A DNA stretch of 64,000 bases, taken from contig CM119372.1 in assembly GCA_051294905.1 (NCBI GenBank), forward strand, positions 7,690,001 to 7,754,000. The letters are read 5' to 3'. Below, piece by piece: positions 7,370 through 51,105 of the stretch (positions are counted from its first letter, which is position 1; the number at the start of each line of letters is the position of its first letter). The DNA comes from Botryllus schlosseri (taxonomy: Eukaryota). The position numbers were made by a program, and so were the translations under genes. The notes beneath the pieces were generated by a model. It was not told the origin of the DNA. It did not search any database and saw only the letters and a list, made by a program, of their open reading frames with translations.

Positions 7370-17270
<9,901 letters not shown>

Positions 17271-23690: not shown

Positions 23691-26600
23691 ATGGCCGGTA
23701 GCACGGCGAGGCTTCGACCTAATCTACCACAGTTCTCCTTTTTGGGTGCAATCAGACAACTGTTTCGGGAGAATAACCGAAGCGGCAAAAAAGAAGGGTC
23801 GCAGGATCCAACAAGGAATATACGACTCTCCGTTATCGAGGAAATGAGCGAAACATCGATTGCTTCGTACTCCCCGAAACAACAATACTCGGATTCAGAG
23901 TCTGCCATTGGTCGCATGGTTGCAATGAGCATGAAAGGTAGCTCAAGGTGCGTATATCTAATGACTGATCAAGGAGTGTAAATTCCTCATGTATAAACCA
24001 TATTCATTCTTACCGAAGTATCCTAGTTGCCATATAGTGCTTCCGCAGAATTGACTTTCCTACAGTAAGCCAAGTGTATCCGCGTATATTATTTGAAAAC
24101 TACTGTGGCTCTGATTTTCGAAATGTAAATATCCCTAGATTACAATCCAATTCAATTTACCATTATCATCATCATTGGTTTATTAGCAATTTTATCAGTT
24201 CCATACACCACAAAAATACGATACAATGAAAAGATAGGAAGGTGTCGAAGCGACTTGGAGTAGCCTATGGAATCAGACAATCACATTGGCCTAGGCCAGA
24301 CCAAGGCAGAGTGCGGCCCGCGGAGCTATTCTGAGTGACCCGCGAATAGTTGCTTGAAATTCAAAACATTAAACCTACTTTTTCATGTTCCTGCATGGAC
24401 TAAAACCATAGCTGTGGAAACTAAACCAAACCGTTTACTTTCAAGCCTGTTCAGTAATATGTCAGGATTCGAGTACTGAAACTGAAAGTTAATTTATCAG
24501 CGAGAATAATAGCTTCGGTACTATTTTCCAACGTGGAAGCCATGAAACCTCGATTGGCCGTATCGCAGCATACGAAACATATAGTACAAAGCTGCGAACG
24601 TTACTGGAAATACACATTTCCCAAGTCATGATCATCCCACAACATTCTCACAAAGTGCAATGAAATCGGTATATGGTCGAAAAATACCGAAGTATCTTTA
24701 CTGTGATGGATAAGAGGCGTTATATCCTTTGCGGTGGCATAAAAGGTACATATTTGAACTTTGACATATCACAATAGGTTGTGACGTCATAGTGAGTGAT
24801 ACTCGAATACTCGACTTGACTCGAAGCATAATACGTGATTCAGTAGCGAATCACTCAGGTAGGCTACTCGATTTTCTCCAGCCATACCTAGCCTATATAG
24901 CATAAGTTACTATGCGTCCTCGTTTAAGAGGATTTGTCCTCTTTTTTGAAAGTGTCCTCGGAGGACGCCCATATGTCGCCTTTTTTGAGACTTCGTCCTC
25001 TTTTTTGAGAGTGTTGGTTAAATATAGGGCAAAATTCGAGTGATAAACAGTAAATCAGCACTGAAGTAACGCTCCGGCGACTATTTCGGGAGCTGAGCCG
25101 GAAAGGTGACCTTTTTTTAGTCAGTCAGCCTACCAACCAACCAACCACATTTTTCCGGATTTCACTCCAGAATTTTAAGTCGGAAAATTTTGAAAAAGTG
25201 TCCTCTTTTCACATTTCCAAGATATGGTAACCCTAATATAGCATCCCTGGCCATAGCGTAGTACTACAATACCTCATTATCTGGCACTACCTGGCGGATC
25301 CGGTTCGATTCCCGTCAGAGGTTTATTTGGGCTCCTCTTCCCCCGCCGTCGCCGTTCTTACGGCGACAAAAAAAGCCCAGAAAAAGACCCGACGAAAGAA
25401 AGCACTCACAAGGAATGGAAAGAACTAGTAGAAAGGGCCGCGGCTTCAAAAAGATCAACATCGAAAAGAACTGTGACATCGGGCACTCTAGGCCGAGGTG
25501 GATGTTGAGTAACGGATCGCTACTGATGCGTGTCGTTCGACATCCTCCTATCTGTTCATTACATCGCATTGTGTCTTATCGTATTGTGCATTGTGTGTGG
25601 CTTGTTCAGATTATACGATTATAAAAAAAACTTGAAATCCCGTTTGAGAACTAGTGCCTATAGGGAGCTATGCCTGGAAATCTATCTAGTTATCGCGGAC
25701 ACATCACGTCAGCCGGGATGGCCCGTATGTGCTGACTGCATTCTATATTCTATATATATAATAATATTTTTGTCAGTTCAAAACACCACAAGATTGCGAA
25801 TCGCGATACAATCAATAGAAAAGATCAGGTTGATGTTTGCAATAAACAGTGTTCAGTATATGTCATGGATATTATCAACCCTACAAAACACATAGGCCCC
25901 GATGGCATATGCATGGCTTACATCAGACCAAAAACGAAGAATCGTTTATTAATTTCAGGCCAACCGACGGAAAGCGGGCAAAAAGGTGTCCGTATCTGGC
26001 ACGTATGATAGAACGTCTTAGGAGATCGGGACGGGCGTCAGCGGAGCCGGAAAATACCCGAAAACATCTCGGCGAAAATATCGCTACAGGGAGGCCGATG
26101 GAATGGGAGCCGCCTAAATATTCCGGAAAAGGTGCCCCCAAGCCCAGGCCGAAACGAAGGCCGCCGAGATCTGAACGGTGGGAGAGAGTGGTGCATTCAG
26201 TCAAACATTCCTCGACCAGAGCTTTTAGTAAGTATTACGCCTGGGCAAAATAGAGTAACTGAACATGTGAACAATTCGATTCTGAATCGAGTATTATTAA
26301 TGAAGCCTCGATTCAAGTCGAGTATCACTCATGATGACGTCACAATCATGTGAATGATGCGGAAAATTCAAATATGTACCTTTTACGCTACCACAAAGAA
26401 TATGGTTTCAGTTCTACATCACATAAAAGATAATTTGGTAATTTTTTCGACCATACCTTAGATTTCATTGCACTAGCCTGTGGCAAAACAGATATGTCAT
26501 TTCCACTAAATTTTTCTTTACAGGCTCCGTGAAAAGAAATGAGAAAGGTATTTGCACGGTTCTTCGAGTGATCGCCGTGATGTCGTTCTGCGCATGCGCA

Positions 26601-29600
26601 GCCGGAGTGACGTTTCTTGCGATTGCATTGGGTATGCGTTGTCAATTTTCGCGCGGAGTTATCTGGCCCGCGTGTATAGGGGTAACCAATCGCTGAAAGT
26701 CGCTCTTGCTGGTTACTACCTTGCATACGACGCCGCGGCGGTGGTCAGTAATCAATAACTTCTTATTTTTCCGAGTACTCGAAGTAGATTTTAACTACTA
26801 GCGGTTATGTCTTGAGACTATACTATCTTCCACTTGGAATTTTTAGGCAAAGCCACTGAATTTTTTCACCTCGGAGTTTGAAAAGTAAGGAGTAGTTTTG
26901 GAATGCTTGCATCAATTTTATGCGTGAAAACGTGAAATTTTCATGACAAATGGGCGAAAGAGTGCCTGTATTGCTGTGACTGAATATATTTTCAAAACTG
27001 GCACCTATAGATTTAGTATAATTACAGTTATGTTACGTTAGTCCACGGCCATGGTTAGTCGCAAGGATGCATCTTTCAATCTCGAAAGTGGTCACCTCCG
27101 CGATTAACCGCAAAAGGTATGCGATCCATCGACCAAATCTACTATGTCAAATTACTATCTTGAGTATACTTTTAAATTTTAATATCTTGATTCCCCTTCC
27201 ACTTCAAATAGTATTGACATGCCTCTTAAACTGCTACTTCTACTTGTAATTGATTATAGAAATTAATGCGCTACAGATATTTCTACATGAGTGACAACTC
27301 CAACTAATTTTTTTTTACCGCCGCCGCGTCGCGATTCTATCTCAAAATACGCATTTTGACAGGAGCGTCTCATCTACTCATGGGTGACTCAAGTGCGGAA
27401 CAGCAAGGTTCCATGCGCCAGTTCCTCTTTACTCTTCAGGTGCGTTTCGCATTTCCATCGCTTGCATTTTCATGTTGAGTTGTATTGATTTTCATTCAGT
27501 GTGCATGCTACATCTTTTTTACATCGTTTACCCCGGAGGGTTTTCGACTCATTCCCCTCCCCTGTTCAGTTCGACATAAATTTTCGCCCACCTTATTTAC
27601 GGAGCCAAAAAAGAGGACATATAAACGGGAAATTTATTTACTCAACTCTGAGAAAGATATAAATGCCCCGAAAACTGGTTTCCGCGTCTACTTTCCATTG
27701 CTTTGACATTTTTAGTCCACTTTTGCGTCATATGCAGAATATGCCGTCTTCAAGCGCATTTTTTTGGCCTTAATAATTAAATTTGTGTCACTGGGCGTTC
27801 TAGCATCTCCTCTCCGACGCCCTTTGGTATTTTCACCCCCTTGTTTCTCAAAATCGCCCACTGGGGGCGATATCGCCCACGTTCGGAACCACTGGGGCAG
27901 CCCCAGGTATAGGTATCTGATATTTCGAGACTACTCCAGGTCGTTTCGACACCTTCCTATCTTTTCATTGTATCTCAATATTGTGGTGTTTGTTAAAAAG
28001 TAAAATTAATATTAAATTGATGGTGATGATGATCGCTATTTCAGGTTCAGGAGATAGACAACGCTGACACGGAATGGAGCAGTGACTTGAATCAACTGGA
28101 CTCGCCGAAGGCGCGAAATATCATTGATGCGCTAAGTCCAAAAGTGAATAGTCCTCGGTCAGTAGTCTGTTTGTGGTCACAATCATAGGCTGTTTCTTCA
28201 GATCCGCGAGGCTTTCGATTCGGAAGGATTGAATGCGGAAGACATACGCGCGACTGAAATTCGGCCAGTGAGCGTGGCCTTCTACAAAGTGTTCAACAAC
28301 ACGGTGTCGTCTCTCACGTCTAACGAGGAGATTTCGATGGTATCTAGTTATAAGGACGATAACGGCAAAGGAATTGCTGAGGATGACAGGGTATAAAGTG
28401 CACGCGCTACAATCTCTACCCAGCTATACACTGTAAACGTAAACCAAAATAGTGCACAGGGTGAAAATCTGATAAACGCCGCTTTATGGTAAGATATACT
28501 TGCCTTTCATACCCGTTACAGAGGGTGAAATTGAGTCAAATACACCAATCATTATGGAGGTGGAGATACATCTCAGGGGTAATATGCTAATACGTGTAAT
28601 AAGCTAATAACTGTTGATCCGACGATGATATCGAGAGTTCCAACCATTCCATATCGTATACGCCCGACTATATCGGGTGCAAATCGTCCGTAGGCTCATA
28701 TACTACATGCTTTTTCGAAAGTATTTACACAATTATGACATAATTATACAACCCTCCACTCCACACCAAAGTAGGAGTTGTGCATCGGGATCTCAAGAAT
28801 TATGAAAATGTGAATCGGCACCGCTAAGATTCGGGTGAACAATGTACGCAAATTGCACCCCCCACAGTTTTAGCGAAAAAAGTGTGTATTCGCTCGCATC
28901 TTAAACGTGGTACGGAAACAGAGTCCAAATCAGAATTATGTCGCGATTATAAATCCTACACTCCTTTACGTACAATGTACATGCAATATTTGGATGAAAC
29001 TGTTATGTTTGATTTATACCGTGGTGTAAGTCGGAGATATGTTCTGCCTTCGTCTACCACGGGTGTACTGTATATTCACACCTGTATATCACGGGTGGTA
29101 CACGGTTGTGAATGCGCACTTTTTTTTCGCTAGGAGTGCACATATAATCCACGCCTCAATCTAGCTTTTCCCCGTCCCGCTGGCGAATACATGATTACTG
29201 AATCTGCCTTCGTCACAAGCAGTTGCGTCACTATTTGTAGCCTATTCCCCAAGGCCATCGAAACGTCATCCGGATTCTCTTCGAAACAACCGGAGACCCG
29301 GCCAGCAATCCAGGAATGGCGTCGCAAGTCGGGGATACGGAGAACGAGAAAATAAAACTGATGCTCGACAAGTACCTGGGCAATCAAGGCGTCGTAGCCA
29401 AAGCCGAGTCTTTCGCCGGTAGGTTTTTGTCACGGCGCGAGACTGAGATGATGAATTTATCGTATGCGACCGTTTAGTGTCACCCGAATTCCGGCGATCC
29501 GCGAGGACTTTGCAAAAGCCGTCGGACGGCGCTGAAGCAACGGTCGATGGCGGTAACAGTAAGTATAGATAACTAACCTACGGATAGATACACAACCCCC

Positions 29601-32600
29601 GTCGTCACGCTTGCTTGCCCGGAGGAAATTACTGCTCAGCAATCTGAACGCAACATCATTGCTAATCCCATAGCTGACGACCCGCTTGCCTAAATTCAAT
29701 AAAGTTGATCTTATTTGAAAGCTACTGCGGCACTGATTCCGAAAATATACATTAAAATCCAATCAGGGCAATGTAGCTCCCTTGAAAATCACCTCATAGT
29801 CTGAAAATCGGCATTGTTCCAAACAATCGCAGCGACATAGCACAATGACCATAACGATGGCCCTTGCGTGGTCGCGATTGTTCATAACAATGCCGATTTT
29901 CAGACTTTGAGGTGTATTTAAAGAGGGTTCCATTGCCCTGATTAGATTTTAATGTATATTTTTGGAATCAGTGCGACAGTATCTTTCAAATAAGATCGAC
30001 TTTATTGAATTTAAGCTCGCGGGTCGTCAGCTATGGGATTAGCAATTATGTTGCGTTCAGATTGCTGAGCAGTAATTTCCTCCGGGCAAGCAAGCGTGAC
30101 GACGGGGTTGCGTATCTATCCGTAGGTTAGTTATCTATACAGTAAGTGATATCTATTTCTGCATGCAATGTTCGCATATGGTCGCATTGATCACCCGAAA
30201 GTAGTGCGCTCAAACTCAGTTTTCTATATACAGATTTTAAGGCCAAACTGGCCAAGTGGCCATGGTCATGGTCAATAACGCCTAAACTGCAAACCTATCG
30301 CTGGAAAGTAGGTGTATATATCAGGTTTCCACCACAACACACGGTGTAAATTATTTCTATCCCCATAACAATTGGTGCCAAACACTGAATTTTATTACAA
30401 TTAGACGGAATTACACCCTTTCTCCTCCTATGAATTAAAGCCACGTTACGGTAATTGGTAATGCGATTTTTTGACAGGTCAAAAAAAGTCAAAACTGTAG
30501 CGTTACGTAAAAAAATGTCAAATTTTTTTACAAAGTTAAAACTTTTTTTCAACCTGCATTCCGTTTGTATCGTAGATTTTGCACTGTGGGTAACTTATCA
30601 TTTGACATTTTACAGCTTGTAGCCTACTTTATAGGCATACGGTTGTATACGGCCCATTGTCTGCTCGTTGTGAAACAGAGACATTCAAATGAAACAAATA
30701 GGTTGACATGGTGTTATGCTCAACGCACTCGGTGGTAGTATATAATTTCGATGATATTTCAATTAAACAATTTCACGATCTCGTTATGATCATACCTTGC
30801 TGGCAAAAGTTGAGGAAACCGCTAAGTCTATTCGTGGGCTGAATTTGTAAAATAACTTCCATTTGTTGCTTTTATGTCCGTTTTTGTAAATTTTGCTTCC
30901 AACTACGAAGGGAATTTAAGCATCATCAAACTCAAACCCGTTTTCGTCTGTAGGCATCTCCATAGACTGCTACAGAACTGGAGAATCGTTGGGTGTCACC
31001 CGTTCCACCGTGATATGCCCGCCAAAATGCCGGGATGTCAAAAACGGCGTCGTCATAGGAACCGACTGGTATTATATCAGCTCCATGATTTGCCTTGCTG
31101 CTATTCATAGCCACCTTATCGAGGTAAGACACTCATTTGGAAATGTGACAAAGGCTAATATTCATAGAGGTTCGTGAGGAGGAGATATCGGCTGGGTTAT
31201 TGCCTTACTAAATTGTGGATGTGTGTAAGACTATTTAAAACAAAAATCAATTTGAAATAAACACGTTTAAAACATGTCTTCGATTGTTCATTTTAACCAT
31301 GACGTCACAAATTTTCGGTTGTTACGTCACGGTGGATTGGCATTGTTAATTGGTTACGAGTCTTACAATCGGAAATACATTTCATAGTGTTAATACGGTT
31401 CAGTATCGAGTTCGAGTTCGGTTAAACTCACGTCTTTGAAACTCTTGGGTGATATCGAAGGCCTCAGAGACATATATTCTCTTTGCATGTAGTTAGTGTA
31501 TAGAGCCGGCTATAGCGTCACAGAACTAACCTTCTCCATACACTATACCAGTGGTCGGGAACCTATGGCTCGCGAGCCATATATGGTTCTTTTGGGCATA
31601 AGATATGGCTCTTTTCGAAATTTTTGTTTTTGTGCTTAATTTATCAAAACTGCAGCAACTTGTTCATAAATCTTCGGCACCACCAGTATAATTTTTCTTG
31701 CGGTATTATAAACATGTCTTTGAGAGGTTTATACAGTTGCGTAATCGGGGTTTGGGGCTCGGACCCCCTTTTCAAAATCCTCAAATTTAAGCTGATGTAT
31801 CGCCGGCGACCAATATCACTCTGGATTTCGATATACCCGCCACGAAATCTTGGATTGCACGATACGTTGATTGATCAAAGAGCCCATATAGGAGACATGG
31901 CGGCGCCTGTATCACAATGCAGTTTTCAAATACATATTTTCTTACTGATCTACGGCGAGAAATGAATTGTCGTGGGTTGAAGTGACATTCACAATTACAA
32001 ATTCAAATTACAAACAACGCCATAGTAATCCACGTTATTGATTGACAACGTGTAGCTTGGTAGTCGCTTTTAAAATATGGATGTGTGCCGCAACGTTATG
32101 TTACCGTCGAATACTTTGAGAATTGAGAAATCGAATCGGTATCAGTGCGACAATTACATTCGATTAATATCAGTTATTATAAGTTCTAAGATATTTCCGC
32201 CGAATTGCGCTATCACAAGTAAGGCATGGCCCGGCCGTGCTTCACATACGCCTTACCTCTTCTTTCGCGCTTTATTGTCGAACAATTTGGTAGTAGAAAT
32301 GTTCAAAATCTAGTATACAGGTGAGGCGCTGGCTCACTTGCCTCCCCTGATCCCACGTCATTGACACATCACACATTACAGTGGGTATGTATACTGCTGT
32401 ATAGTGACCATGTCTGGCTCGACCTACGTATGTCATCATGGGTCCTCGCATCTAATTTTGTATGAACAACAATTATCAACCAATCAATCAATCAATCATT
32501 TTTTATTTGTCACACCAGTGAAAATCCGGTACGGACCAGGATGACGACGAGGGGCCGCAAGGCCTTAGTACACAGTCGCCACCTGAAGGAGTATACACAT

Positions 32601-35600
32601 TATATTCAATGGCACAAAACAAATGACAATAAATATACAAAACTACAAGAAAAGCAGAGAAAAAAAATTCAACAAGGATATACGAGCTATAAATATTACA
32701 GTCTCAAGACAGCAGTGCAGAAAAGGGTCAATAGAGTAGATTATACGGTACTTTCCAACAATAAGACAGTAGTCAACCAGACTACAAAGCCATCAGGAAT
32801 AACATGCAACACGAGAAGATGCATTAACTGTTAAAAGCGTGTAAAAGTATATTCACTGCTACTACGTATGTTGGAATTCTAAATGTTAATCGTCTTGGGC
32901 TTCGAAAAATATCACAGGCCACCCAGTGCAATACGATTAGAAATATATAACTTGCAAAAGATCTATGTAACTCAAGTTTGGTATGATCATTACTCAAATA
33001 TGACGATCAGCATGATTAGTAAGAGTTTTTACCGAGGAAATAGGTGCAAACGACGAATCCCGTGTAGTGATTTCGAATTTGTGCTACTATGACGTCACCA
33101 TTTTTCAATTGTGACGTAATAGCTGATCGACATGTATGGCTCTTTGGGAGTTAAAATGGAAAATATAGGCTCAATATGGCTCTTCGGACGAAAAAGGTTC
33201 CCGACCACTGCACTATACAGTATACATGTATCTTGAGGAAGTGAGTAAGCCCCTTTAATGTCGAAAAATTTAACTAGAGATGTGCCAACATCACGAAGTC
33301 ACTGTGAAGAATGTGGAACACGATGCCTATACTGCGTAGGCCTATACTTAATAAATAGACTTTAATATTTATCACATACATAAACGTATTTTTGCGAATA
33401 GTGAAGCAGTGTACTTAATACATAACAAGCCTATCACGAATATTTAGAACGATGCGGGCGGCAGCGTTGAGTACCTTCAATCGGGAAACGCGTTTCTCTT
33501 CCCGGGCTCCACAAAAAATGAGGTAACTTCCACAAGCCTCTTCAAATACGGACGCAGGTTTTATATCAAAAGTACGCCCATTAGGTTTTAGACATTTGAT
33601 TTTACGCCAACTACCTCAGCGTTGAATATTCAGGACCGGGTCCTAGTTGGACGACCACTACGATACCTGCGCCCCAACCTACTGTTCTACCTGGACTGCA
33701 GGGCACACGCGGAGTCGTAATGACAGGTAAATCGGACTGTTTTCATTGGGAGGAGATTTTGACAACGAAACGGTACTCATATATCCCGACTGTTCCGTAT
33801 AGGTCAGATGACAGCTATATCGCTTGATGGAAACCCACTGACTTATACATTGAGTTTATCGTACAGCTCAGTGCTGAAAGGAAAGATGACAGCTTTGTTG
33901 CAAAATAAGGTATTTATAGCCGTGTTTAATCTGCTGATATCAGTAACACCAACGTCCACCATGATAGGGTTAATAGCGAATTTTGTCGGCAAAATCTCTC
34001 ACTGATGGAGATGACATCATAGCCCTCACCTTGAAATATAGACTATGTTTATGTCACTTCAGTTCTTCCCCCCTAGTCCGTGCGTAGTCGCACCCTAAAT
34101 TTGATACGCGAGAGCGGAACCCAATACCTCAGAATTCAGAAGCCCCGTTCTCGGGGTGTTGATCGCCTGGACTGCTGTGTTTCAATTTCGAGTGAATTTG
34201 AGCCAATCATTGTTATCAGTCGGCGTTTGTCTTTCTTTGTATATATTCAATTGCAAGTCAGGTTCGTCTGGTTTATGAAGAATTTTCATCCTTTCAAAAC
34301 ACCACACGACCGCGATACGATGAAAAGATAGAAGGGTGTCGTATCTACTGGGAGTAGTCGTTGAAATCAGACACCACCAAGGGCCTAGGCGATGTAAAAA
34401 GGACAAACTGAGGTGGCATGTGACGGCAGGCCAGATCGATATGTCTGGCCGTCGTCGGGTAGACTTGAGGGCTGACTAGTATTTATTCAGTAGAAATTGC
34501 TTGTACTTCGCAAAAGAGACGGTTGGTTGGATTGATTCATGCTCTAAATCGGGGGTCATCAACACACAGCCCGCAAGGTCAAATTTTGCGGCCCGCAACC
34601 TAATTTGAGATTTCGTAAGAAAATTGATTTCAGTTAAAAATATTGTTGTTGTTGTTCAAAATAAGATATTCTACGCACTAGCTGATACGGCTTCGGCGAT
34701 AATAAGAAATGCATATTCATTGTACTGTAAACTTGTAATGCCGTGGAGCACAAAGCCTCAAAGACAGGCTATAAGCACCACTGATGTGAATGATAATAAT
34801 AATAATAATGTGGCGATGCAAAATAAACATTGTACCGATAGTCATTGGCGCTACAGGGGTCGTGAGCAAAAAACTCATGAGACATATCCAACAAATTCCG
34901 GGTAACGTTCGATTCGACATGATCCAAAAGATCACATTATTGTGTACTGTGCACATTCTTCGGAAGGCCTTGAATGCACCACTGGACTAAAATTACACTT
35001 GTGAATCACAGCATAATTTCTGTAATTCCGATTCTTCATCTTCAATCATCTCTACCTCTGCTCTGTAACCCTTGATAATTCTTCATCTGCTGCAATTCTG
35101 TAATCTGACTTCTCCGTGTATTGCATAGGAATAACAATTTGAATGTGTTACTGAAATTTTAAAAATTTACTCCAATCTCGCCATTTTCCTTTGGGGGCAG
35201 GTTGCTCCCCGGATTATGTGTGTATCTACCAGTTTTACTGTGAATAAAGAATATAATAATAATACCGCGGTATCCATTCTATTTTCGTGTGGCACCTTTG
35301 GGGTGTGGATACACACTACACAGTAACACACTCTTTTGTCTAATAGTGAGGTATGTTCGCTGGTAAGCGTTTTAATATGCCGTGTTCGATTTGACTCGAA
35401 GCAAATACACCTATGCTATGTATATTGTATATTTGCGCAAGTCTCATGATTATAGTCCGCCAATTTCCAAATATCTTTCGAGCTCTTCTACTCACTGGAG
35501 GACATGAGTTTCCGGGTCGAAAAAATACGAGTGTCCAACTTTCAACCAGACACCGGCACTGCGATTGCACTGCGTTTCTCCTTCGAGATGCAAGGCAACT

Positions 35601-44600: not shown

Positions 44601-47600
44601 CAGTGCACAAAATGAACTGCGCGCAACAGTGTTAAAAGAACAACACCATAGTTTTGACCATGAACGAATATTTTCTGCCAATCGATGAGATATCTGCTGG
44701 ATGAGTCGCGTGTGTGTCTTGGCATCGATACTGAATGTGGCAACGCCGTTGTGCACACACACGACTTGTTCATGTGCATAACATGCCTGCATTGCATATA
44801 TTGCATTCTCGGCGGTGTCCTTTCTCGGTAGAGGCATTCTCGGTAATGGTTTTCTCGGTCGGACACCGTTCATCCAATTTGGCTCGATTCCAATCAGTAG
44901 AAGCCAACGTAGAGCAACTGAAATTTTTGAATCCCTTTTCGAATTCACTGTCAATGCAGGAAATTGTTGAATTGCCTAAACGATGCAAACCAAATTTAAC
45001 GCAATTCCAACCCGTAGAAGCGAAGTTATTTAAGTTTTTCATAAACAACTCTACGAATTTCCACCGTCAATGCTATTTTTGCAAATACAAAACTTTCAAC
45101 TGCAAAAATTGCTATGCATCGTTTTTTTCGGCAATATAACAATATCATGAGGTTGACAGTAAAATTTGAAAAAAAAATTCGTAATAAATTCAAAATTCAG
45201 GGTTGTAATGACTCGAGTCATGACTCGACTCGCGTCAGACTCGAGTCGCAATTTTCAGATGACTCGAGTCAATCTGTGTAATGACTCGACTTGAGTCATT
45301 ACGCATGACTCGGACCAAGTCATATAGACTCGAGACTCAGGCGGCCCAGACCGACATCTCATTGTAATTTCGAAGGATAGTAAAGTCACCACATTATTGG
45401 TATTTGGTCTACTATTCCTGATACTTGGAAAGTAGGGCCAGAAACTGATAACAGTGAGAAAAATTAGTCTATTATAAATGCGAACCGTCCGATATCACCA
45501 AACAGTTATAAAACGTCGGTTAAACAAGACTTCAACTGGAAACCGAGCAGTCAGCACAGTGACTTGGACTCGGACTCGAGTCATAATACCATGACTCGGA
45601 CTCGACCCTCTGCTTGCTGACTTGGACTCGGACTTGACTAGATGGGGAATTGAAAATGACTCGACTTGACTTGAGTCAAAACTATAAAAGTGAGATTGAC
45701 TCGTAACCTTGTGACTTGGTTACAAACCTGCTAATATGTCGACCTCGCCTCCCGACACATGCCGTCTCATTTTTATCGCTTGCCCTTGTTATGTTATCTT
45801 CTATCGCTCTTCATTCAGTGTGCATCAATTGTGAATTCCTCTTCTTTACATCGCCTCTAGGTCCCGTGGTCGTGTGCCATTGGACCCACCGGGTGGTGAC
45901 CGATGATACGTTCGAGCAACAAATTTTAAACGTTTAATAATATTTTTTGAATAGGAGGATATCCATGTAAATTCCCGCGATAGTTAGAGCTTGTATCTTG
46001 AGACAGCAAAAGATCCGCTATTCTTGACTGAAGATTTGAGGGCTAGAGATCATTTTGCAATTTTTGATCCATCGGTACCACATCTTCCCTACTCCTATAG
46101 CCGCTTCGACACCGCCTATCTTTTCATGTATTGCAATCTTGGGGTGTTTTGAAATGATGAGAATTATCAATTATAATAAACCGAATTTATGCACCGATTT
46201 TTATTTAGGGAAAACGGATATAGGCTATAACCACAAATATGTATCTTTCAATAGGAAGTATTCCTGTTTGGAGGCTGTCGACGGAGTTTGCTCGAAGACA
46301 GTGAACGTGACTATTGGCCAAAGTGAGTATTTAAATGATTTGAATTACATGTACTCATGTTCCCGCGTGTCGGTCAATGCATAGAAGACCGCGTTCGTGA
46401 ATATGTGATATGTGCTCTTTACTAATGTGTCGACACTTTGTGGAATTTGATCTCATGACGATACCATGTACCTTAAAGTTTATAGATTTATATTGTTGGC
46501 CAATATTCTTATACACAGATATAGCCAAAAGACGACTTCGATATTGCGAATTAAACCACTTGCGTTGTGACTTGTGATAGCTGAACAAACATAGTCGACA
46601 ATAACAGCTCAGGGCCAGCAAGTTACAGCGTCAAAACTAAAAAGGAAATGCTTTTTGTCAATGTCACCCGAACCTTATCATGTCAAACAGAATTACGAAT
46701 TCATGATTGTGTCGCATGAACACTAGGGCTCTTCAAAAATGACTTTTTTTCTCAAATCGTACTGGCTACTTGATAAAATTGTTAGGTTACCTAATTTAAG
46801 CCTACACACAAAATTTGGTTCAATTCCAGCCAGTAACCGCTTTGCTACAGGAGAAGTAAGTTTCTACTTATTATATAAAAATAAATTATTGCCGTCGAAA
46901 AATTTGGATTTGAATAACTCACCGTAAATACTATTTTATTCAAATCCAAATTTTTCGACGGCAATAATTCCGCTTCCACTGGTTGGAATTGAACCAAATT
47001 TGGTGAGCATCGTTTCTATAGACAGCCTAACACTTTCACGGGGTAAACAGAAAATTTTCAAATTTTTTATTATTTATTTTTATATAATAAATAGAAACTT
47101 TCTTCTCCTGTAGCAAAGCAGTTACTGGCTGGAATTGAACCAAATTTTGTGTATACGCTTAAATTAGGTAACCTAACAATTTTATCAAGTAGCCAGTACA
47201 ATTTGAGAAAAAAAGTCATTTTTGAAGAGCCCTACATTGAACAGTCGCGTCCTTTGTGCAGGTGGCGCAAGCGGAAAAAACACGATAAGGAATTCGTACG
47301 CGCGCGGTATACCACCTGGCGTCGGTTTGAAGAAATACGGAGAAATTGGCGGTAAGGATTTACAACTCAACATGCTCAATTCCGCATCAGCCGTATAACC
47401 GATGACGTCAACTTATTTATCGCTTCCGCGTCTATACGCCGAGAAATTCCACCGGGAGCAAGTATTCTCGATATGCAATGCCAGTCACTATATTGATGAC
47501 GTTACAGTGTCAAGAATCAAAAATTGATAGGCTACGGTACTGCTGAACTGGTATTACTGAACTGGCCAATAAAAACGATATAGATATATAGCTTAGAAGT

Positions 47601-50600
47601 GTTGTAGCTAATATATATAGTGGCGTGACATCACGAAATGTCACATATCTATCAGTCTCAGGAATATGGTAACGCGAAGGACCTCTACTCAGTGGTGGCC
47701 TACGATCGGGCGGGGGGGGGGGGGCTGGGCGAGACTTCCGGGGGGGCAGAACCCGTGTAGCGGTCGACGCAACGACTTGTTGCAAGACACGCTGGTATAG
47801 TGCTCGATTGGAGTCAATCAATCAATCAATCAGGTTTATTAATATTTTCATCGTTTCAAAACATCACAAGACTGCGATACAATGAAAAGATAGGACGGTG
47901 TCGAAACAACTTGGAGTAGCCATTAAGATCAGACACCCACCTTAGCCTAGGCGAAGTAAATAAGAGGCATGCACACTGAATGAAAAGTAATGCAGAGAAT
48001 ATAAGACGCAAGCGACGAAATGGGGTGGCATGTGGCGGAGGGCGAGGTCGATGTTAGGTCGTGGTCCGGTAATCCTGAAGACTGGCTAGAATTGATTTAG
48101 AAGAAATTTTGCTTGTATTTCGACTTGAATGCGGACATGCTCGACGACTGTCGGATAGCCGATGCTACAGTTCCTGTTTTACGCACTAGCAGACTGACTT
48201 ATGACCGCTATAGCTCTCTTGCAATCCTGATCACACACGCAGATCCAAGGAGCTTTCTTTAATAACATAGAACAGTCAAATAGTAGTAAGTAGCTGTCAG
48301 AAACTTGTAGATTTACCAGGATCAAATCATACTGCAATATAGGCCTATTAACAAATATAAAAGAACACAGTGAAATGAATCTAATTGTCTATATACGATT
48401 CTGCGACTGAAGCGCGAGCACGCCCGCTACAAGCATTGCGAAATGGTAGTTTCAAGAGCTATGATGGGCCATATTTACCGTGATGAAATAGTTCATATGG
48501 GCGACAATGCAATGTGAATGGAACCACGCAACCCGCTACCTAAATTATATTCACCGATACGTTGGTGAAATTATATTAGTCTACTGTGCGCGAAGCGCAA
48601 CGAAAATTCTGGGCTTTACTCAACTTTTATGAAAAATAAATGTTGATAGGCTACTCATCCGTGAAAACAGTCTGATTGGATGATTAAACTACTTCTACTT
48701 GACAAACTAAAAATGGCGAAAAGTACATAAGTAGATCACAAAATATTGCGAAGTAGAAGTAGCGGGAAATTATATCTACTTGAGTAAGTACCCAAGTAGT
48801 GGAAAACTACTTGAGTACTTCAAATAGTAGAATTACTTCGTTACTGACCACCTCTGAGACTATTGATATCTCCAACTCTATATAAATTAACTAAGATCCG
48901 TTTGTCTTCTTGATACTACGCTCATTTGCTTCATTTAGGAGCGGTTTATAACGGAGAGGTGCTGGCCAAGACAAGTCAAAGCAGACTCACTGAACCAGAC
49001 GCCAGTCAGGCTTTTTACTCCTCTTACGAATGCGGAAAGTCGAACGGAGTCAGTCCAAGGAGTATAATGCAAGGAAAGATAGTGGGTATGCATCAAGAAC
49101 ATCTGGACAAGCACTGGGCTTTTGTGTACGAAGTAAATAATATTTGTCGCATTATTATTACTGCAGGAGGTGAGAACGCGGTGTCTCATGCGTGGCCGTG
49201 GATAATAAGCATCAACCGGCTTCGATCGAGGCGCGATACGCTGACGGATAGAGAAATATATACGTATAACTTCTGGGTGTGCGGAGGAACGATTATATCT
49301 TCTGAGTGGGTGGTCACCGCTGCCCATTGCTTTGCGAAAGGAAATGAAAAAAGGTGAGGCCGATGTACATAATGGACGTGGACCCACTGTATTCCCGTGA
49401 TTTTACATCATCGGTACGCATTATTAGTCTCGATAAAATGGCATACAACAGTTACCAAGATCTTGTGGCCGCCGCGATTTGGGCCTGTACAAACCACGGC
49501 GGATTCGCGTGGCTATCACCACTATTGAACTAGTAGGCTTACCAGCCTCTCAGCTTATTCGCAGGTACACGACTTCCTACAAGATCCTCACTGGGGCTCA
49601 TGATCAAGAACTGCTTAGTAGCATCTCTTCGGACGATGTTTACGACATCAGAAGGATCCTATACTATCCCTTCTATGACGACACCAAAAACAAGTTTGAC
49701 GTTGCGTTGCTACGAACGAGCGTAGGTAGAGCCCCTAGCGGTACAGCTCGAGAGATATAACACCGCAGAATTCCTTTTTACAGAGAGTAATGAGATTCCG
49801 TCGAGAGGTATCGCCAGCGTGCTTGCCTAACCCGGACGTTGTACCATTCACCGACAAGCCTTGCGTCGTGGCAGGGTGGGGCTACACTAGCACAAAAGGT
49901 TTATGATGTTAGAGAACGGAAATTGATTTGTAGGGAGTCCCTGTTACTTAGTGCTCCTGTGATCTGGTGGCCATAATCTGATACGACCATCGTATATGCA
50001 CGATCGTTCACCACTCAACAGCGGTCTGCAGCCTAAGATCTGACCAAACCAATTCATAACTTTTCGGCCTAGCTATCCACAGAAAGGAAGCCGGCGTAGA
50101 TGTGTGATACCGATCGTGCAAATAGATGTGTTGCACGACGCGGCTACCCTTTCATCTCGTACAGCTTTGTCCATAGATATGAGGCTACTGCAATGTTACG
50201 AGACGCAGAGGGTTTACAGCAGGGGTTCTCAAACTGGGGTAGCCTACACAATTTTTCTGGCACTGTGAAAACAACGATATATTTATGGGGCAAGTGAGAA
50301 AGAATTGTAAGCTTTCTAAATGCAGCGTTTAAGGCACCATGATTTTATATTGTTCCGCTTACAGTTGCGAGCTAGGTTTTTTGTGCGTTGCGCACGATGA
50401 AGAAAATTTCGTGTCAGATTTTAGGTTGAACCTCGGTTAAACGACTTAAACGTATTCCTTTCCAACACACTCTCACAAATATTGTATTTACTCTTAAGAA
50501 TTCATGCATTTAGTCTTTTAATCTACTAAACTTTGCGTGGTATTAATTTCAATGAGTACCCATTCATGCAGTTTAAGAGTAAGGGTATGCGGATAAAAAT

Positions 50601-51105
50601 AAAGTGAATCTCATTTGTATTTGTATTTTGTACATTCACAAGACCAAAGCTCAAAACCATTTAGCAAATACTTCCAAGCTATTTCAAAGGTGACACAGCA
50701 CGAAACATATTGAAGCAAGCCTTGCAAGTCATAGAAGATCCAACTAGATGTCAGAAGGTCTATCGGAGCCTTGGGTACGATCCCAATTACAATACCTGCT
50801 CAAAAAAATCGGAAGGCAACACCGTCGATATGCAGTGCCGAGTATGTAGTGTCTTGACTGAGAAATTTTTTGAAATTATAACGCTACATTCATCTCAACA
50901 GGGAGATTCCGGAGGGCCTCTGGTGTGCTTTGAAAACAACAAGTGGGTGTTGTACGGCGTTGCGAATTACGGCCCCAGGGATTGCGAGAAAGGAGGAAAC
51001 GGCGTTTTCTTGCTCGTACCTAGTGTTATGGAGTGGATTTGCTGTTATATTTCAACTAAACTAGTCCCGTGCACCAACACAATATGCAATACAAAGCTAA
51101 CTTGA
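23691..51105 (+). CDS. Predicted multi-exon type II transmembrane mosaic serine protease (cytoplasmic tail-TM-SEA-LCCL-SEA-vWA-S1 protease), ~1,280-1,320 aa. Exons: 23691-23947, 25319-25497, 25777-25828, 25959-26227, 26524-26631, 27363-27439, 28045-28143, 28202-28267 (or -28390), 29241-29418, 30954-31123, 33448-33571, 33634-33726, 33803-33909, 35456-35617, 35678-35789, 37048-37129, 37202-37313, 40549-40737, 43837-44000, 44064-44174, 46255-46322, 47262-47351, 48939-49085, 49167-49353, 49565-49721, 49784-49898, 50690-50841, 50902-51105
   Basis: Hand-assembled chain of GT-AG exons with matching phases and no internal stop. Kozak-like gaagccATGg at 23691. The part from the TM exon to the stop is supported by domain motifs; the four N-terminal exons rest on phase and splice signals only. 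Confidence 0.7.
24903..25235. mobile_element. hAT MITE, TAGGGTTACCATA family (reverse orientation)
   Basis: Ends ATATGGTAACCCTA; perfect TSD ATATAGCA. Confidence 0.85.
26524..26631 (+). CDS. Exon encoding the type II signal-anchor TM segment of the mosaic protease
   Basis: ttctttacag|...|gtatgc, phase 1-1. Translates SSVKRNEKGICTVLRVIAVMSFCACAAGVTFLAIAL(G): basic residues then a hydrophobic run. Confidence 0.65.
27363..29418 (+). CDS. SEA-like domain 1 exons of the mosaic protease
   Basis: RQFLFTLQ|VQEIDNADTEWSSDLNQLDSPKARNIIDALSPK|IREAFDSEG...NVIRILFET. Resembles the SEA pattern F..t..I.N..w..dL.d..S.....l...l...l...f. Confidence 0.55.
29565..30138. mobile_element. Foldback/MULE-like MITE, almost entirely palindromic
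   Basis: ~265-bp inverted arms (atagataactaacctacggatag... / ...ctatccgtaggttagttatctat); 9-bp duplication ACAGTAAGT at 29556-29564 and 30139-30147. Confidence 0.85.
30954..33571 (+). CDS. LCCL domain exons (30954-31123 and 33448-33571)
   Basis: IDCYRTG...VICPPKCRDVKNGVVIGTDWYYISSMICLAAIHSHLIE|NDAGGSVEY..GNAFLFPGSTKNEVTSTSL..GRRF. Matches the LCCL consensus CP..C....V.GT..Y...S.IC.AAIH.G.I...GG.V....Y.GS..NG..S. Confidence 0.85.
31549..33210. mobile_element. hAT (Charlie-like) element containing nested fragments (a relative of 8404-9735 from ~31734; a LINE-like 3' end with (CAAT)n at ~32480)
   Basis: CAGTGGTCGGGAACC / GGTTCCCGACCACTG; perfect TSD CACTATAC. Confidence 0.88.
33803..35789 (+). 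CDS. SEA-like domain 2 exons, after a Thr/Pro-rich linker exon (33634-33726)
   Basis: LTYTLSLSYSSVLKGKMTALLQNK|...FRVEKIRVSNFQPDTGTAIALRFSFEM. SEA-like beta/alpha pattern by eye only. Confidence 0.45.
34810..35263 (+). mobile_element. 5'-truncated R4/Dong-like non-LTR retrotransposon (restriction-like endonuclease C-terminus)
   Basis: MWRCKINIVPIVIGATGVV..L...IQKITLLCTVHILRKAL. Flanked by (TAA)n at 34791-34809 and a (TAA)n tail at ~35250-35263. Confidence 0.75.
36600..36925. mobile_element. MITE with inverted arrays of the ~17-bp unit ACCGAGAATGGACATT
   Basis: gtccggtcaataccgagaa ... attctcggtaatagtatggaaac; family copies at 37585-38287 and 44700-44865. Confidence 0.75.
37202..44174 (+). 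CDS. von Willebrand factor A domain exons (37202-37313, 40549-40737, 43837-44000, 44064-44174)
   Basis: CTDVFFVVETS (cf. DivFllDxS), NIRFGIAV, AGTDT (cf. GgTnT), RDKLLVIYSES (cf. KvlvviTDG), KTLKSKSVKILSVG, YVSSPTQDF..SVTDLKEL. Confidence 0.8.
37585..38287. repeat. Expanded copy of the same MITE with long inverted tandem arrays of (ACCGAGAATGGACATT)n
   Basis: Direct array 37598-37790 and complementary array 37930-38275. Confidence 0.85.
38528..40145. mobile_element. hAT-like element with internal ~325-bp tandem duplications
   Basis: CAGGGCCGTAAC / GTTACGGTGCTG; perfect TSD TCTAGATA. Near-identical units at ~38710-39035 and 39035-39360, partial third to ~39550. Confidence 0.85.
40905..41576. 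mobile_element. hAT MITE, TAGGGTTACCATA family, with an internal insertion
   Basis: CAGGGTTACCATAT / ATATGGTAACCCTA; perfect TSD TGATATTG. Confidence 0.85.
42499..42867. mobile_element. hAT MITE, TAGGGTTACCATA family, nested in a CAGAGGTGG-family element (~42020-43051)
   Basis: Perfect TSD TATTGAGG. The host matches the reverse complement of 59608-60250. Confidence 0.88.
43197..43729. mobile_element. Foldback/MULE-like palindromic MITE related to 29565-30138
   Basis: ~230-bp inverted arms; shared internal motif gattccgaaaatata.attaaaat..aatcagg; imperfect 9-bp flank catttcact/aatttcaca. Confidence 0.8.
46724..47234. mobile_element. Palindromic MITE with long TIRs
   Basis: TAGGGCTCTTCAAAAATGAC / GTCATTTTTGAAGAGCCCTA with ~165-bp arms plus an inner hairpin at 46884-46969. 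Partial relatives near 12226-12420. Confidence 0.85.
47813..48170 (-). mobile_element. L2/CR1-like LINE 3' end with (ATTG)n tail
   Basis: Near-identical to 60960-61300. Confidence 0.8.
48430..48856. mobile_element. Partial hAT element of the CAGAGGTGGTCAGTAAC family
   Basis: Ends gttactgaccacctctg; reverse complement of 59608-60050. Confidence 0.75.
48939..51105 (+). CDS. S1 (trypsin/chymotrypsin-fold) serine protease domain exons
   Basis: ECG..K|IVGG activation site created by splicing 49085->49167; WPW, CGGTIISSEWVVTAAHC (His), FDVALL (Asp), PACLP, CVVAGWG, GDSGGPLVC (Ser); stop at 51105. Confidence 0.95.

What the first reader, a model, noticed from the sequence alone, without database searches (positions are those of the whole stretch)
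23691..51105. Membrane-anchored serine protease with an unfamiliar SEA-LCCL-SEA-vWA-S1 architecture, invisible in the ORF track
Seen: ~28 short GT-AG exons over 27 kb join in phase, without stops, into a long cytoplasmic tail, a signal anchor, a SEA-like domain, LCCL, a T/P linker, a second SEA-like domain, vWA and a complete S1 protease. Known: type II transmembrane serine proteases (HAT/DESC, matriptase, enteropeptidase) pair SEA with CUB, LDLa or SRCR. LCCL+vWA is the cochlin/vitrin combination. LCCL+S1 occurs in Limulus factor C, and vWA+S1 in complement factor B/C2. I know of no protein uniting all of these behind a membrane anchor. Inference: a lineage-specific surface protease, possibly a microbe sensor or a gamete/matrix protease.
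Basis: partly seen in the sequence, partly recalled or inferred. Interest (0 to 1): 0.85.

Follow-up and report, generated by a model that had tools for sequence, protein, structure and literature searches.

The report
Ascidian membrane protease with LCCL stem
A real-looking 25-exon sea-squirt gene encodes a membrane-anchored trypsin-type protease whose long stalk carries an LCCL domain, a new stalk for this kind of enzyme, though two of the claimed stalk domains and the single transcript remain unproven.

Summary
The exon chain is real. It gives an open 1267-codon frame, far above chance: chain score 98.5 against 21.1 on the minus strand and 7.0-13.5 in shuffles.

Pfam confirms LCCL, split colinearly over exons 8-9, and a complete S1 domain with His, Asp, Ser, Asp194 and the usual cysteines. 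Hydropathy shows one signal anchor behind a basic 185-residue tail.

The two "SEA" modules and the "vWA" module gave no Pfam, home-made profile, PDB or pairwise signal above noise. They remain resemblances by eye.

The organism is an ascidian. The protease and its juxta-protease linker motif belong to an ascidian family. Other members, one in Clavelina and a paralogue on contig C6 of the same genome, are short-stalk type II proteins. The stalk exons are unique in the genome.

One-gene continuity rests on inference:
- all module borders are in phase 1;
- the gap holds two strong internal exons;
- the gap holds no anchor exon of its own.

Verdict: a new variant of type II transmembrane serine protease, of moderate interest.

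The parts
23691..23947 (+). exon 1: start codon and first part of the cytoplasmic tail
   Evidence: ATG in GCCATGG context, 8 nt after an AG acceptor-like site; in-frame stop upstream at 23622. Coding log-odds +6.6; donor at the 99th percentile.
25959..26227 (+). exon 2: basic cytoplasmic tail
   Evidence: Acceptor at the 99th and donor at the 96th percentile. The tail (aa 1-185) has K+R 40 against D+E 18.
26524..26631 (+). exon 3: signal anchor (only hydrophobic segment, about aa 184-213)
   Evidence: Kyte-Doolittle 19-residue maximum 2.37. It is the only cluster at or above 1.6 in the 1267 aa. Flank charge is +3 before and -2 after.
27363..27439 (+). exon 4: start of stalk module A ('SEA-like 1')
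   Evidence: Phase-1 border. Splice sites at the 97th and 100th percentiles. No Pfam hit.
28045..28143 (+). exon 5: module A
   Evidence: Log-odds +7.2. No Pfam hit.
28202..28390 (+). exon 6: module A
   Evidence: Log-odds +14.9. Unique in the genome. No Pfam hit and no informative Atlas hit.
29241..29418 (+). exon 7: end of module A
   Evidence: Log-odds +7.3. Weak similarity to module B: 14 of 500 shuffles reach the observed score.
30954..31123 (+). exon 8: LCCL domain, first part (four Cys)
   Evidence: PF03815, 37.6 bits (cut-off 22.6), profile 18-58. Also found by the own-genome scan at C2:7720995-7721156.
33448..33571 (+). exon 9: LCCL domain, second part
   Evidence: PF03815, profile 60-93, 13.9 bits, colinear with exon 8. 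The alignment runs past the alternative donor at 33522.
33634..33726 (+). exon 10: Thr/Pro-rich linker
   Evidence: Phase 1-1 exon. Donor at the 100th percentile.
33803..33909 (+). exon 11: start of stalk module B ('SEA-like 2')
   Evidence: Best in-phase candidate in the gap. Splice sites at the 93rd and 97th percentiles.
35456..35617 (+). exon 12: module B
   Evidence: Unique in the genome. No Pfam hit.
35678..35789 (+). exon 13: end of module B
   Evidence: Log-odds +12.1; donor at the 98th percentile. Sequence read.
37048..37129 (+). exon 14: acidic piece ending in C-x-C, start of module C
   Evidence: Sequence read. Phase-1 border. Cys 675 and 677.
37202..37313 (+). exon 15: module C ('vWA-like'), first strand and helix
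   Evidence: Sequence read. No VWA hit. hhalign matches only this strand, at noise level.
40549..40737 (+). exon 16: module C
   Evidence: Log-odds +10.1. Unique in the genome. No Pfam, PDB or Atlas signal.
43837..44000 (+). exon 17: module C
   Evidence: Acceptor at the 100th percentile. No Pfam or PDB signal.
44064..44174 (+). exon 18: module C
   Evidence: Log-odds +14.5; acceptor at the 100th percentile.
46255..46322 (+). exon 19: two-Cys piece that closes module C in phase 1
   Evidence: Acceptor 2.64 and donor 3.43. Site pairs this strong occur 0 times in 18.0 kb of other introns and 0 times in 27.4 kb of the minus strand.
47262..47351 (+). exon 20: phase 1-1 spacer before the protease module
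   Evidence: Acceptor 3.17 and donor 2.98, same null result. Its last 7 residues begin the alignment to the Clavelina relative.
48939..49353 (+). exon 21: linker with the family motif, propeptide Cys-Arg, and the N-terminal part of the S1 domain with His57
   Evidence: Trypsin, profile 3-46, E 3.2e-11. Linker motif shared with P0079 and the C6 paralogue. Best solved relative is TMPRSS2.
49565..49721 (+). exon 22: S1 domain with Asp102
   Evidence: Donor chosen by frame. Aligned to P0079 and others by phmmer and tblastn.
49784..49898 (+). exon 23: S1 domain (Cys122, Cys136)
   Evidence: Trypsin, profile 99-132.
50690..50841 (+). exon 24: S1 domain (Cys168, Cys182, Cys191)
   Evidence: tblastn of P0079 shows a gap exactly over the 60-nt intron 50842-50901.
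50902..51105 (+). exon 25: GDSGGP (Asp194, Ser195), Cys201, Cys220, Cys-rich tail, stop codon
   Evidence: Trypsin, profile 178-220, 28.8 bits. Sequence read.

Best explanation
The locus is one protein-coding gene of an ascidian. It encodes a type II transmembrane serine protease of about 1267 residues.

Layout of the protein:
- a basic cytoplasmic tail (aa 1-185);
- one signal anchor;
- a long extracellular stalk;
- a C-terminal chymotrypsin-fold (S1A) protease.

The stalk is a mosaic of exon-shuffled modules, each bounded by phase-1 introns:
- a Cys-free module A;
- an LCCL domain;
- a Thr/Pro linker;
- a Cys-free module B, weakly similar to A;
- a roughly 240-residue module C with a beta-alpha pattern and Cys at both ends;
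- a spacer.

How it most likely works (inferred). The enzyme sits on the cell surface as a zymogen. It is cut near Arg991, which follows the propeptide Cys990. The catalytic domain stays tethered to the stalk through the Cys990-Cys1124 disulfide, the chymotrypsin 1-122 pair. The LCCL and other stalk modules bind a ligand in the matrix, on a microbe or on an egg coat, and so localise proteolysis.

Origin (inferred). The catalytic module and its linker motif come from an ascidian family of short-stalk type II protease-like proteins. This copy gained its long stalk by exon shuffling or gene fusion.

Shown: the exon chain, the anchor, LCCL, and the S1 domain with its catalytic residues. Inferred: a single transcript, activation, tethering and ligand binding. 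Unknown: the folds of modules A, B and C.
For: GENE MODEL. 25 GT-AG exons give an open 1267-codon frame. The chain scores 98.5 against 21.1 on the minus strand and 7.0-13.5 in shuffles.

DOMAINS. Colinear Pfam hits cross introns: LCCL 18-58 then 60-93; Trypsin 3-46, 99-132, 178-220. phmmer of the spliced protein aligns the whole S1 domain (q999-1252, 123.9 bits) to P0079. A Clavelina-to-window tblastn leaves a gap exactly at intron 24. The motifs TAAHC, DVALL and GDSGGP are present, as are Cys at the positions of 42, 58, 122, 136, 168, 182, 191, 201 and 220 plus a propeptide Cys-Arg.

TOPOLOGY. There is one hydrophobic segment, and the positive charge lies on the N-terminal side.

CONTINUITY.
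- Exons 3, 4, 8, 10, 11, 14, 20 and 21 all start in phase 1, so every module is 1-1 (table). This is the classical signature of shuffled extracellular modules (established knowledge, Patthy's rule, recalled).
- The 4.7-kb gap between module C and the protease holds two exons whose splice-site pairs have no equal in 18.0 kb of other introns or in 27.4 kb of the opposite strand. Both are internal: each has an acceptor and a donor, and neither has a start or a stop.
- The gap offers only 1 weak ATG+hydrophobic first exon able to join exons 19-21. All 5 hydrophobic ORFs in it are repeat DNA.
- The protease part has many disulfide Cys but no signal of its own.

FAMILY. The linker motif and S1 domain are shared with the Clavelina 'mastin-like' protein (P0079) and with a paralogue on C6.
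Against: - No RNA evidence was obtained (see Tried and rejected), so a transcript that ends after exon 18, or one that starts before exon 19 or 20, is not excluded.
- The only relatives that share the linker motif are short. Clavelina P0079 has 417 aa with its own anchor directly upstream of the linker. The C6 paralogue has a candidate anchor exon about 3 kb upstream of its linker exon and no match to the window's stalk. That is the pattern expected if the ancestral protease gene were self-contained.
- No orthologue with this stalk was found: 405 hits to exon 21 match the protease part only, P0079 excepted.
- The activation site is not canonical. Pfam aligns Gly997-Gly998 with the GG of IVGG, so Arg991 lies three residues too far upstream (R-III-TAGG).
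- The residue at the position of 189 is Met, with Asp one residue earlier, so specificity cannot be read.
- No AATAAA or ATTAAA lies within 600 nt after the stop.
Confidence: 0.6

Rival explanations
1. Two adjacent genes were wrongly joined. The upstream gene would be a type II membrane protein with the LCCL stalk (exons 1-18 or 1-19). The downstream gene would be a short ascidian-family protease (exons 20 or 21 to 25) like its Clavelina and C6 relatives. Its first exons would be undetected, or it would be read as the downstream gene of a trans-spliced operon.
For: The relatives that share the linker motif are short and carry their own anchor. No orthologue with the long stalk was found. Phase compatibility of a single join has about a 1 in 3 chance. 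No RNA evidence is available.
Against: Exon 18 ends at a donor with no stop, and exons 19 and 20 are strong internal exons. The gap holds no unique hydrophobic ORF and no usable ATG+anchor exon. The first Met downstream of the exon 19 acceptor lies in exon 21 and is not followed by a signal peptide, yet the protease needs the secretory pathway for its disulfides. The N-terminal 127 aa of P0079 have no counterpart anywhere in the window.
Confidence: 0.2
2. The gene is as modelled, but modules A, B and C are not SEA and vWA folds. The true architecture would be anchor, unknown, LCCL, unknown, unknown, S1. The headline 'SEA-LCCL-SEA-vWA-S1' would then be a misnomer. This rival concerns only the domain names. 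It is compatible with the best explanation, which leaves these folds open, so its figure is a separate estimate and does not add to the others.
For: There is no Pfam hit for SEA or VWA on any exon at E up to 10. A profile of 20 Pfam-positive VWA domains from the same genome scores -0.2 bits on the spliced protein. hhalign gives probability 0.7%, the same as shuffles. The global profile alignment gives z = 2.1. Pairwise against a Pfam-positive VWA, 389 of 500 shuffles reach the observed score; against a Pfam-positive SEA, 77 of 500 and 333 of 500 do. The metal-site motif DxSxS reads ETSAF, and the SEA cleavage motif G/SVVV is absent.
Against: Module C shows alternating hydrophobic strands and amphipathic helices, with Cys at both ends, as in vWF A domains (read; recalled knowledge). 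Modules A and B are Cys-free. Their best local alignments to a true SEA, and module C's to a true VWA, fall at equivalent positions although the scores are not significant. A and B resemble each other weakly (14 of 500 shuffles). All profile tests on the spliced protein used weak home-made tools.
Confidence: 0.45
3. The locus is a decaying or silent gene: a duplicated protease module stranded behind another gene, kept open by chance or only recently inactivated.
For: No expression evidence is available. The activation site is non-canonical. There is no canonical poly(A) signal. The family evolves fast: the only orthologue-like fragment found is 52% identical (P0005).
Against: 1267 codons stay open across 25 exons, with strong splice sites and positive coding log-odds in 22 of 25 exons. 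All catalytic and disulfide residues are kept, whereas the C6 paralogue and Clavelina have lost Asp194.
Confidence: 0.07

Closest known systems
Clavelina lepadiformis 'mastin-like' protein (XP_076818116.1 / P0079, 417 aa) and its closer counterpart in the window's own genome (G000:C6:4257899-4263015, minus strand)
   Same: These are the only proteins found that share both the juxta-protease linker motif (phmmer q915-958, E 6.8e-6) and the S1 domain (123.9 bits), including the C-terminal W-I-C tail. P0079 is type II, with an N-terminal tail followed by a hydrophobic segment.
   Different: The stalk is short, with no LCCL and no counterpart of modules A-C. Asp194 is replaced (GLSGSP and GFSGAP). 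There is no Cys-Arg activation site. The window's copy is a paralogue, because the C6 locus is closer to P0079 (60% against 37% identity in the last exon).
Vertebrate type II transmembrane serine proteases (TMPRSS2, hepsin, matriptase, enteropeptidase, HAT/DESC)
   Same: They share a cytoplasmic tail, a signal anchor, a modular stalk and a C-terminal S1 domain preceded by a Cys that can tether it after cleavage. TMPRSS2 is the best solved match to exon 21 (E 4.9e-7).
   Different: Their stalks use SEA, LDLa, SRCR, CUB, MAM or Fz modules (recalled). None is known to me with LCCL. The activation motif here is R-III-TAGG, not R-IVGG.
HrTTSP-1 of the ascidian Halocynthia roretzi (sperm partner of the egg-coat protein VC70)
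   Same: It is an ascidian type II protein with an unusual, lineage-specific stalk and a C-terminal serine protease. It sets a precedent for a role in gamete interaction (PMC9265791, passages of section 3.2 and Table 1).
Limulus factor C; cochlin and vitrin; complement factor B/C2
   Same: Factor C combines LCCL with an S1 protease. Cochlin and vitrin combine LCCL with vWA. Factor B/C2 place vWA directly before S1 (all recalled). A Sushi-VWA-Trypsin protein (P0106) is among the 150 closest listed protease relatives.
   Different: All of these are secreted, not anchored. No Sushi, EGF or C-type lectin hit falls on any exon. The vWA identity is unproven here. Unlike factor B, this protein keeps Asp194 and a propeptide Cys, and about 120 residues separate module C from the protease.

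Membership tests
S1A (chymotrypsin-fold) serine peptidase | Match to the Trypsin profile over the whole domain | tested here: met
   PF00089 on exons 21, 23 and 25 at profile 3-46, 99-132 and 178-220. Full-length phmmer alignments of 95-124 bits to 12 relatives.
S1A (chymotrypsin-fold) serine peptidase | Catalytic His57, Asp102 and Ser195, plus Asp194 | tested here: met
   TAAHC (His1050), DVALL (Asp1104) and GDSGGP (Asp1202, Ser1203) in the spliced frame, aligned with relatives.
S1A (chymotrypsin-fold) serine peptidase | Canonical activation site R/K | I-V-G-G | tested here: not met
   The sequence reads C-R-I-I-I-T-A-G-G. Pfam aligns Gly997-Gly998 to profile positions 3-4, which leaves Arg991 three residues upstream of the canonical P1.
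Type II transmembrane serine protease (TTSP) | N-terminal cytoplasmic tail, a single signal anchor and no cleavable signal peptide | tested here: met
   One hydrophobic segment at aa 184-213. The tail has K+R 40 against D+E 18. The charge difference across the anchor fits N-in. Tested by hydropathy only; no dedicated predictor was run.
Type II transmembrane serine protease (TTSP) | C-terminal S1 domain tethered by a propeptide Cys to Cys122 | tested here: met
   Cys990 stands directly before Arg991, and Cys1124 lies in the P-A-C-L-P motif. The disulfide itself is inferred.
Type II transmembrane serine protease (TTSP) | Anchor, stalk and protease lie on one transcript | not testable with these tools
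The indirect support is intron phases, strong internal exons and the absence of an anchor exon in the gap.
LCCL domain | Profile match above the curated cut-off, with four conserved Cys | tested here: met
   PF03815, 37.6 bits against a cut-off of 22.6 on exon 8, continued colinearly on exon 9. Cys398, 414, 418 and 439. The own-genome scan gives 38.8 bits at the locus.
SEA domain | Match to the SEA profile | tested here: not met
   No PF01390 hit on any exon at E up to 10. None of the 10 own-genome matches is at this locus. Pairwise against a Pfam-positive SEA: 77 of 500 and 333 of 500 shuffles reach the score. The spliced domain could not be given to Pfam.
SEA domain | Autoproteolysis motif G|SVVV (recalled) | tested here: not met
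   Module B reads ...F-Q-P-D-T-G-T-A-I-A-L..., and module A has an insertion at that place. This is similar in shape but is not the motif.
SEA domain | Alpha/beta sandwich fold | not testable with these tools
   The fold predictor accepts only unspliced window sequence.
von Willebrand factor type A domain | Match to a VWA profile | tested here: not met
   No PF00092 hit on any exon. The locus is not among the 150 of 161 own-genome matches that were listed. Home-made profile: -0.2 bits. hhalign: 0.7%. Global profile z = 2.1. Against the P0106 VWA: 389 of 500 shuffles reach the score.
von Willebrand factor type A domain | MIDAS motif DxSxS...T...D (recalled) | tested here: not met
   The first motif reads E-T-S-A-F.
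Complement factor B/C2-like | Sushi (CCP) modules followed by VWA and S1 | tested here: not met
   No Sushi hit on any exon. VWA is unproven. By contrast, the true example P0106 gives Sushi + VWA + Trypsin.

The most novel reading that the evidence does not exclude
A chordate cell-surface protease assembled by exon shuffling, with every module border in phase 1. It would place a factor-C/cochlin-type LCCL module and a factor-B-like vWA-to-S1 arrangement on a membrane anchor. It would act as a membrane-bound recognition protease: ligand capture by the stalk (microbial surface, egg coat or allogeneic tissue) would license a non-canonical activation of the catalytic domain. That would be a recognition-coupled protease of a type not described in tunicates or vertebrates.
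Probability: 0.12. Interest if true: 0.7.

Novelty: new variant of a known kind. Interest (0 to 1): 0.4.

Why it matters
Type II transmembrane serine proteases are a well-defined class whose stalk modules decide where and on what they act. If this is one gene, it adds LCCL to the list of stalk modules. It also shows, within one genome, a short-stalk paralogue and a long-stalk copy of the same catalytic family. That is a clean case of stalk gain by phase-1 exon shuffling or gene fusion in the sister group of vertebrates.

Ascidians use surface proteases in fertilisation and self/non-self recognition; HrTTSP-1 is the example in PMC9265791. A unique, fast-evolving surface protease is therefore a reasonable candidate for such roles.

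It would not overturn anything. Lineage-specific domain mosaics are common in invertebrate deuterostomes.

Tried and rejected
RNA EVIDENCE. The look-up of sequencing runs listed no RNA holder.

PROTEIN DATABASE. The word-index search with exon 21 found nothing at 'longer' or 'near' lengths. The control with the neighbouring coatomer ORF shows that this organism's own proteome is not in that database: the best hit is 93%, from an unnamed assembly, and the best named hit is Styela clava at 81%. These blanks therefore say little.

REPRESENTATIVE SEARCH. The search with exon 21 gave 405 hits at E up to 0.001. All but P0079 match the protease part only.

SCAN ARCHIVE AND ATLAS. Earlier findings of this scan: nothing. 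ESM Atlas on exons 16 and 6: no family.

SOLVED STRUCTURES. phmmer of exons 16 and 17 against PDB sequences gave 0 hits and 1 spurious hit.

HOME-MADE TESTS. VWA profile, hhalign and global alignment were at noise level. Pairwise tests against a true VWA and a true SEA were not significant.

GENE-MODEL DETAILS.
- The automatic gene finder alone gave 19 exons. It missed six and took a wrong donor at 49725, which I corrected by hand.
- The optional cassette 47114-47167 was rejected because it lies in repeat DNA and is not needed for the frame.
- The alternative donor at 33522 was rejected because no in-phase continuation exists and the LCCL alignment runs past it.

LITERATURE. Six searches found no paper describing LCCL with a membrane-anchored protease. 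Of PMC9265791 I saw only passages. For all other papers I saw only the search listings.

NOT DONE. No structure prediction, fold search or complex prediction was run, because the spliced protein cannot be submitted and single exons would give meaningless models.

Full report
WHAT IS THERE

The window is animal DNA with about 41% G+C. It is G000:C2:7690001-7754000 of a 495.5-Mb assembly.

I trained a codon model only on the intronless coatomer-gamma ORF next door (51371-53965, minus strand). It scored 98.5, against 21.1 for the minus strand of the same region and 7.0-13.5 for six block shuffles.

I then read the sequence by hand, searched the gaps and corrected one donor. That gave a 25-exon model, 23691-51105, with 24 GT-AG introns, 3804 nt and 1267 codons, and no internal stop.

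In-frame coding log-odds are positive in 22 of 25 exons and are the best frame in 23 of 25. 18 of 24 acceptors and 19 of 24 donors are at or above the 90th percentile of all AG/GT sites in the region. Only one further in-phase cassette exists in about 21 kb of introns (47114-47167). It lies in repeat DNA and is not needed.

WHICH DOMAINS ARE REAL

Exon-by-exon Pfam gives two families.

- LCCL. Exon 8 matches profile positions 18-58 at 37.6 bits, above the cut-off of 22.6. Exon 9 matches positions 60-93. The two halves of one domain thus lie on either side of the 2.3-kb intron 8, which is independent support for that junction.
- Trypsin. Exon 21 matches positions 3-46, exon 23 positions 99-132 and exon 25 positions 178-220.

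phmmer of the spliced protein inside the script box aligns the whole catalytic domain to many relatives, best at 123.9 bits. His1050, Asp1104, Asp1202 and Ser1203 are in place. So are cysteines at the positions of 42/58, 136/201, 168/182 and 191/220, together with Cys1124 (position 122) and a propeptide Cys990-Arg991.

The activation site is odd. Pfam aligns Gly997-Gly998 to the GG of IVGG, so the sequence reads C-R-I-I-I-T-A-G-G, and Arg lies three residues upstream of the canonical P1. The residue at position 189 is Met. Specificity and the mode of activation are therefore open.

Hydropathy finds one hydrophobic segment (aa 184-213), after a basic tail with 40 K+R against 18 D+E. This fits a type II orientation.

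WHICH DOMAINS ARE NOT SHOWN

Neither SEA nor VWA matched any exon at E up to 10. In the whole-genome scans the locus was not among the 10 SEA matches, nor among the 150 VWA matches listed out of 161.

The spliced protein cannot be handed to the Pfam, PDB or folding tools, so I tested it in the script box. All results were at noise level.

- A profile built from 20 Pfam-positive VWA domains of the same genome (L001-L020) scores -0.2 bits.
- hhalign gives probability 0.7%, like shuffled queries.
- A global profile alignment gives z = 2.1, with some shuffles scoring higher.
- Local alignment to the VWA of P0106 is reached by 389 of 500 shuffles.
- Local alignment to the SEA of P0062 is reached by 77 of 500 shuffles (module A) and 333 of 500 (module B).

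What remains is what the sequence shows to the eye:

- two Cys-free modules that resemble each other weakly (14 of 500 shuffles);
- a module of alternating hydrophobic strands and helices with Cys at both ends;
- a degenerate metal-site motif (E-T-S-A-F).

I treat 'SEA' and 'vWA' as unverified names, each about even odds.

ORGANISM AND DATABASE COVERAGE

The coatomer ORF's best named relatives are ascidians: Styela clava 81%, then Phallusia, Clavelina and Ciona at 75-76%. The best hits overall, 93% and 89%, come from unnamed assemblies.

So the window is from an ascidian whose own proteome is not in the protein database. This explains why the word-index searches with exon 21 found nothing.

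RELATIVES

The exhaustive search with exon 21 gave 405 hits at E up to 0.001. Of the 150 listed, all match only the protease part, with one exception.

That exception is P0079, 'mastin-like isoform X2' of Clavelina lepadiformis. It also matches the linker just upstream of the protease (q915-958), and it is the best full-length protease match. Its tblastn against the window hits exons 21-25 in order and leaves a gap exactly over the 60-nt intron 24.

P0079 is a short type II protein of 417 aa: tail, hydrophobic segment, short stalk with the motif, then an S1-like domain in which Asp194 is replaced and the Cys-Arg site is missing.

The window's own genome holds a closer counterpart of P0079 on contig C6. 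It is 60% identical in the last exon, against 37% for the window. It also has Asp194 replaced, has a candidate anchor exon about 3 kb upstream, and shows no similarity to the window's stalk.

The window gene is thus a paralogue within an ascidian family of short-stalk, membrane-anchored protease-like proteins. It is the copy that kept the catalytic residues. Its stalk exons 6, 12 and 16 are unique in the genome.

Pfam over all 150 listed relatives found LCCL in 0, VWA in 1 (P0106, Sushi-VWA-Trypsin, factor-B-like) and SEA in 1 (P0062). None combines them. The cut-offs differed between calls: E 0.001-0.01, and 1e-6.

ONE GENE OR TWO

This is the weak point, and no RNA evidence could be obtained. 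The indirect evidence favours one gene.

1. Intron phases. Exons 3, 4, 8, 10, 11, 14, 20 and 21 all begin in phase 1. So the blocks [4-7], [8-9 = LCCL], [10], [11-13], [14-19] and [20] are all 1-1 modules, and the protease module is entered in phase 1. This is the classical pattern of shuffled extracellular modules (recalled). I drew the module borders other than LCCL and the protease after the fact.
2. Strong internal exons. The 4.7-kb gap between exon 18 and exon 21 contains two exons whose acceptor/donor pairs (both at or above 2.5) have no equal in 18.0 kb of the other introns or in 27.4 kb of the opposite strand. Both are internal exons. Exon 19 carries two Cys that could pair with the C-x-C of exon 14, which ties it to module C. 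The last residues of exon 20 begin the alignment to P0079.
3. No separate start. The gap offers only one weak ATG+hydrophobic exon able to join exons 19-21, and it lies in repeat DNA. All five hydrophobic ORFs there are repeats with other copies in the window. The disulfide-rich protease therefore has no signal other than exon 3.

Against one gene: the family's other members are self-contained short genes, no orthologue with the long stalk was seen, and phase agreement alone is cheap. I put one gene at about 0.7, and the full best explanation at 0.6.

COMPARISON WITH WHAT IS KNOWN

By class this is a type II transmembrane serine protease. TMPRSS2 is the best solved match to exon 21.

Ascidians are already known to have such proteases with idiosyncratic stalks. 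HrTTSP-1 of Halocynthia roretzi has 23 EGF-like and 2 ricin-B domains and binds the egg-coat protein VC70 (PMC9265791, passages read).

LCCL with S1 occurs in Limulus factor C, LCCL with vWA in cochlin and vitrin, and vWA before S1 in factor B/C2 (all recalled). All of those are secreted, and none of their other defining modules is present here.

Six literature searches found no description of an LCCL-bearing membrane protease.

VERDICT

This is a genuine, well-supported gene model for a membrane-anchored S1 protease with an LCCL domain in its stalk. It is single-copy, and it is a member of an ascidian-specific protease family whose other members have short stalks.

It is a new variant of a known kind, not a new kind. 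The headline architecture is only half verified: LCCL and S1 yes, SEA and vWA not. The single transcript is inferred. Interest is moderate.

Noticed in passing
window 51371-53965 (minus strand): An intronless 865-codon coatomer gamma gene (Adaptin_N, COP-gamma platform and C-terminal appendage domains; 81% identical to Styela clava). It is convergent with the protease gene, with only 262 nt (51106-51367) between the two stop codons and no canonical poly(A) signal on either strand in between. Whether it is the functional copy or a retrogene was not examined.
   Followed up: partly
window 3552-5891 (+ strand): A single open frame of 779 codons with a SEFIR domain (E 1.1e-9), an ILCR1 Ig-like domain and a hydrophobic segment. 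This looks like an interleukin-17-receptor-like gene about 18 kb upstream of the protease gene.
   Followed up: partly
G000:C6:4257899-4263015 (minus strand; loci L021-L024): A paralogue of the protease module with the same linker motif but G-F-S-G-A-P in place of GDSGGP. It is the closer counterpart of Clavelina 'mastin-like'. A candidate signal-anchor exon lies about 3 kb upstream. It may be a membrane-anchored pseudoprotease conserved across ascidian orders.
   Followed up: partly
window 36612-38274 and 38799-39545: Long arrays of a 16-nt tandem repeat on both sides of exons 14-15, and 2.3 copies of a 324-nt repeat, all inside introns 13 and 15. Their translations mimic long ORFs on both strands.
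   Followed up: no
window 44660-45940, 47970-48050; also 390-510 and 61100-61190: Short interspersed repeats with copies in several introns and elsewhere in the window. They carry hydrophobic pseudo-ORFs that could be mistaken for anchor exons.
   Followed up: partly
window 55934-56842 (+) and 13233-13595 (-): A reverse-transcriptase fragment of a retroelement (RVT_1, E 5.3e-6), and an isolated protein-kinase exon (Pkinase, E 2.2e-13) belonging to another multi-exon gene on the minus strand.
   Followed up: no
protein P0005 (65 aa, from an unnamed assembly): A fragment 52% identical to the protease part of exon 21. It ends at the same place as that exon and resembles the window's copy more than the C6 paralogue by eye. 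It may be an exon of the orthologue in another ascidian. Its genomic context could not be fetched.
   Followed up: no
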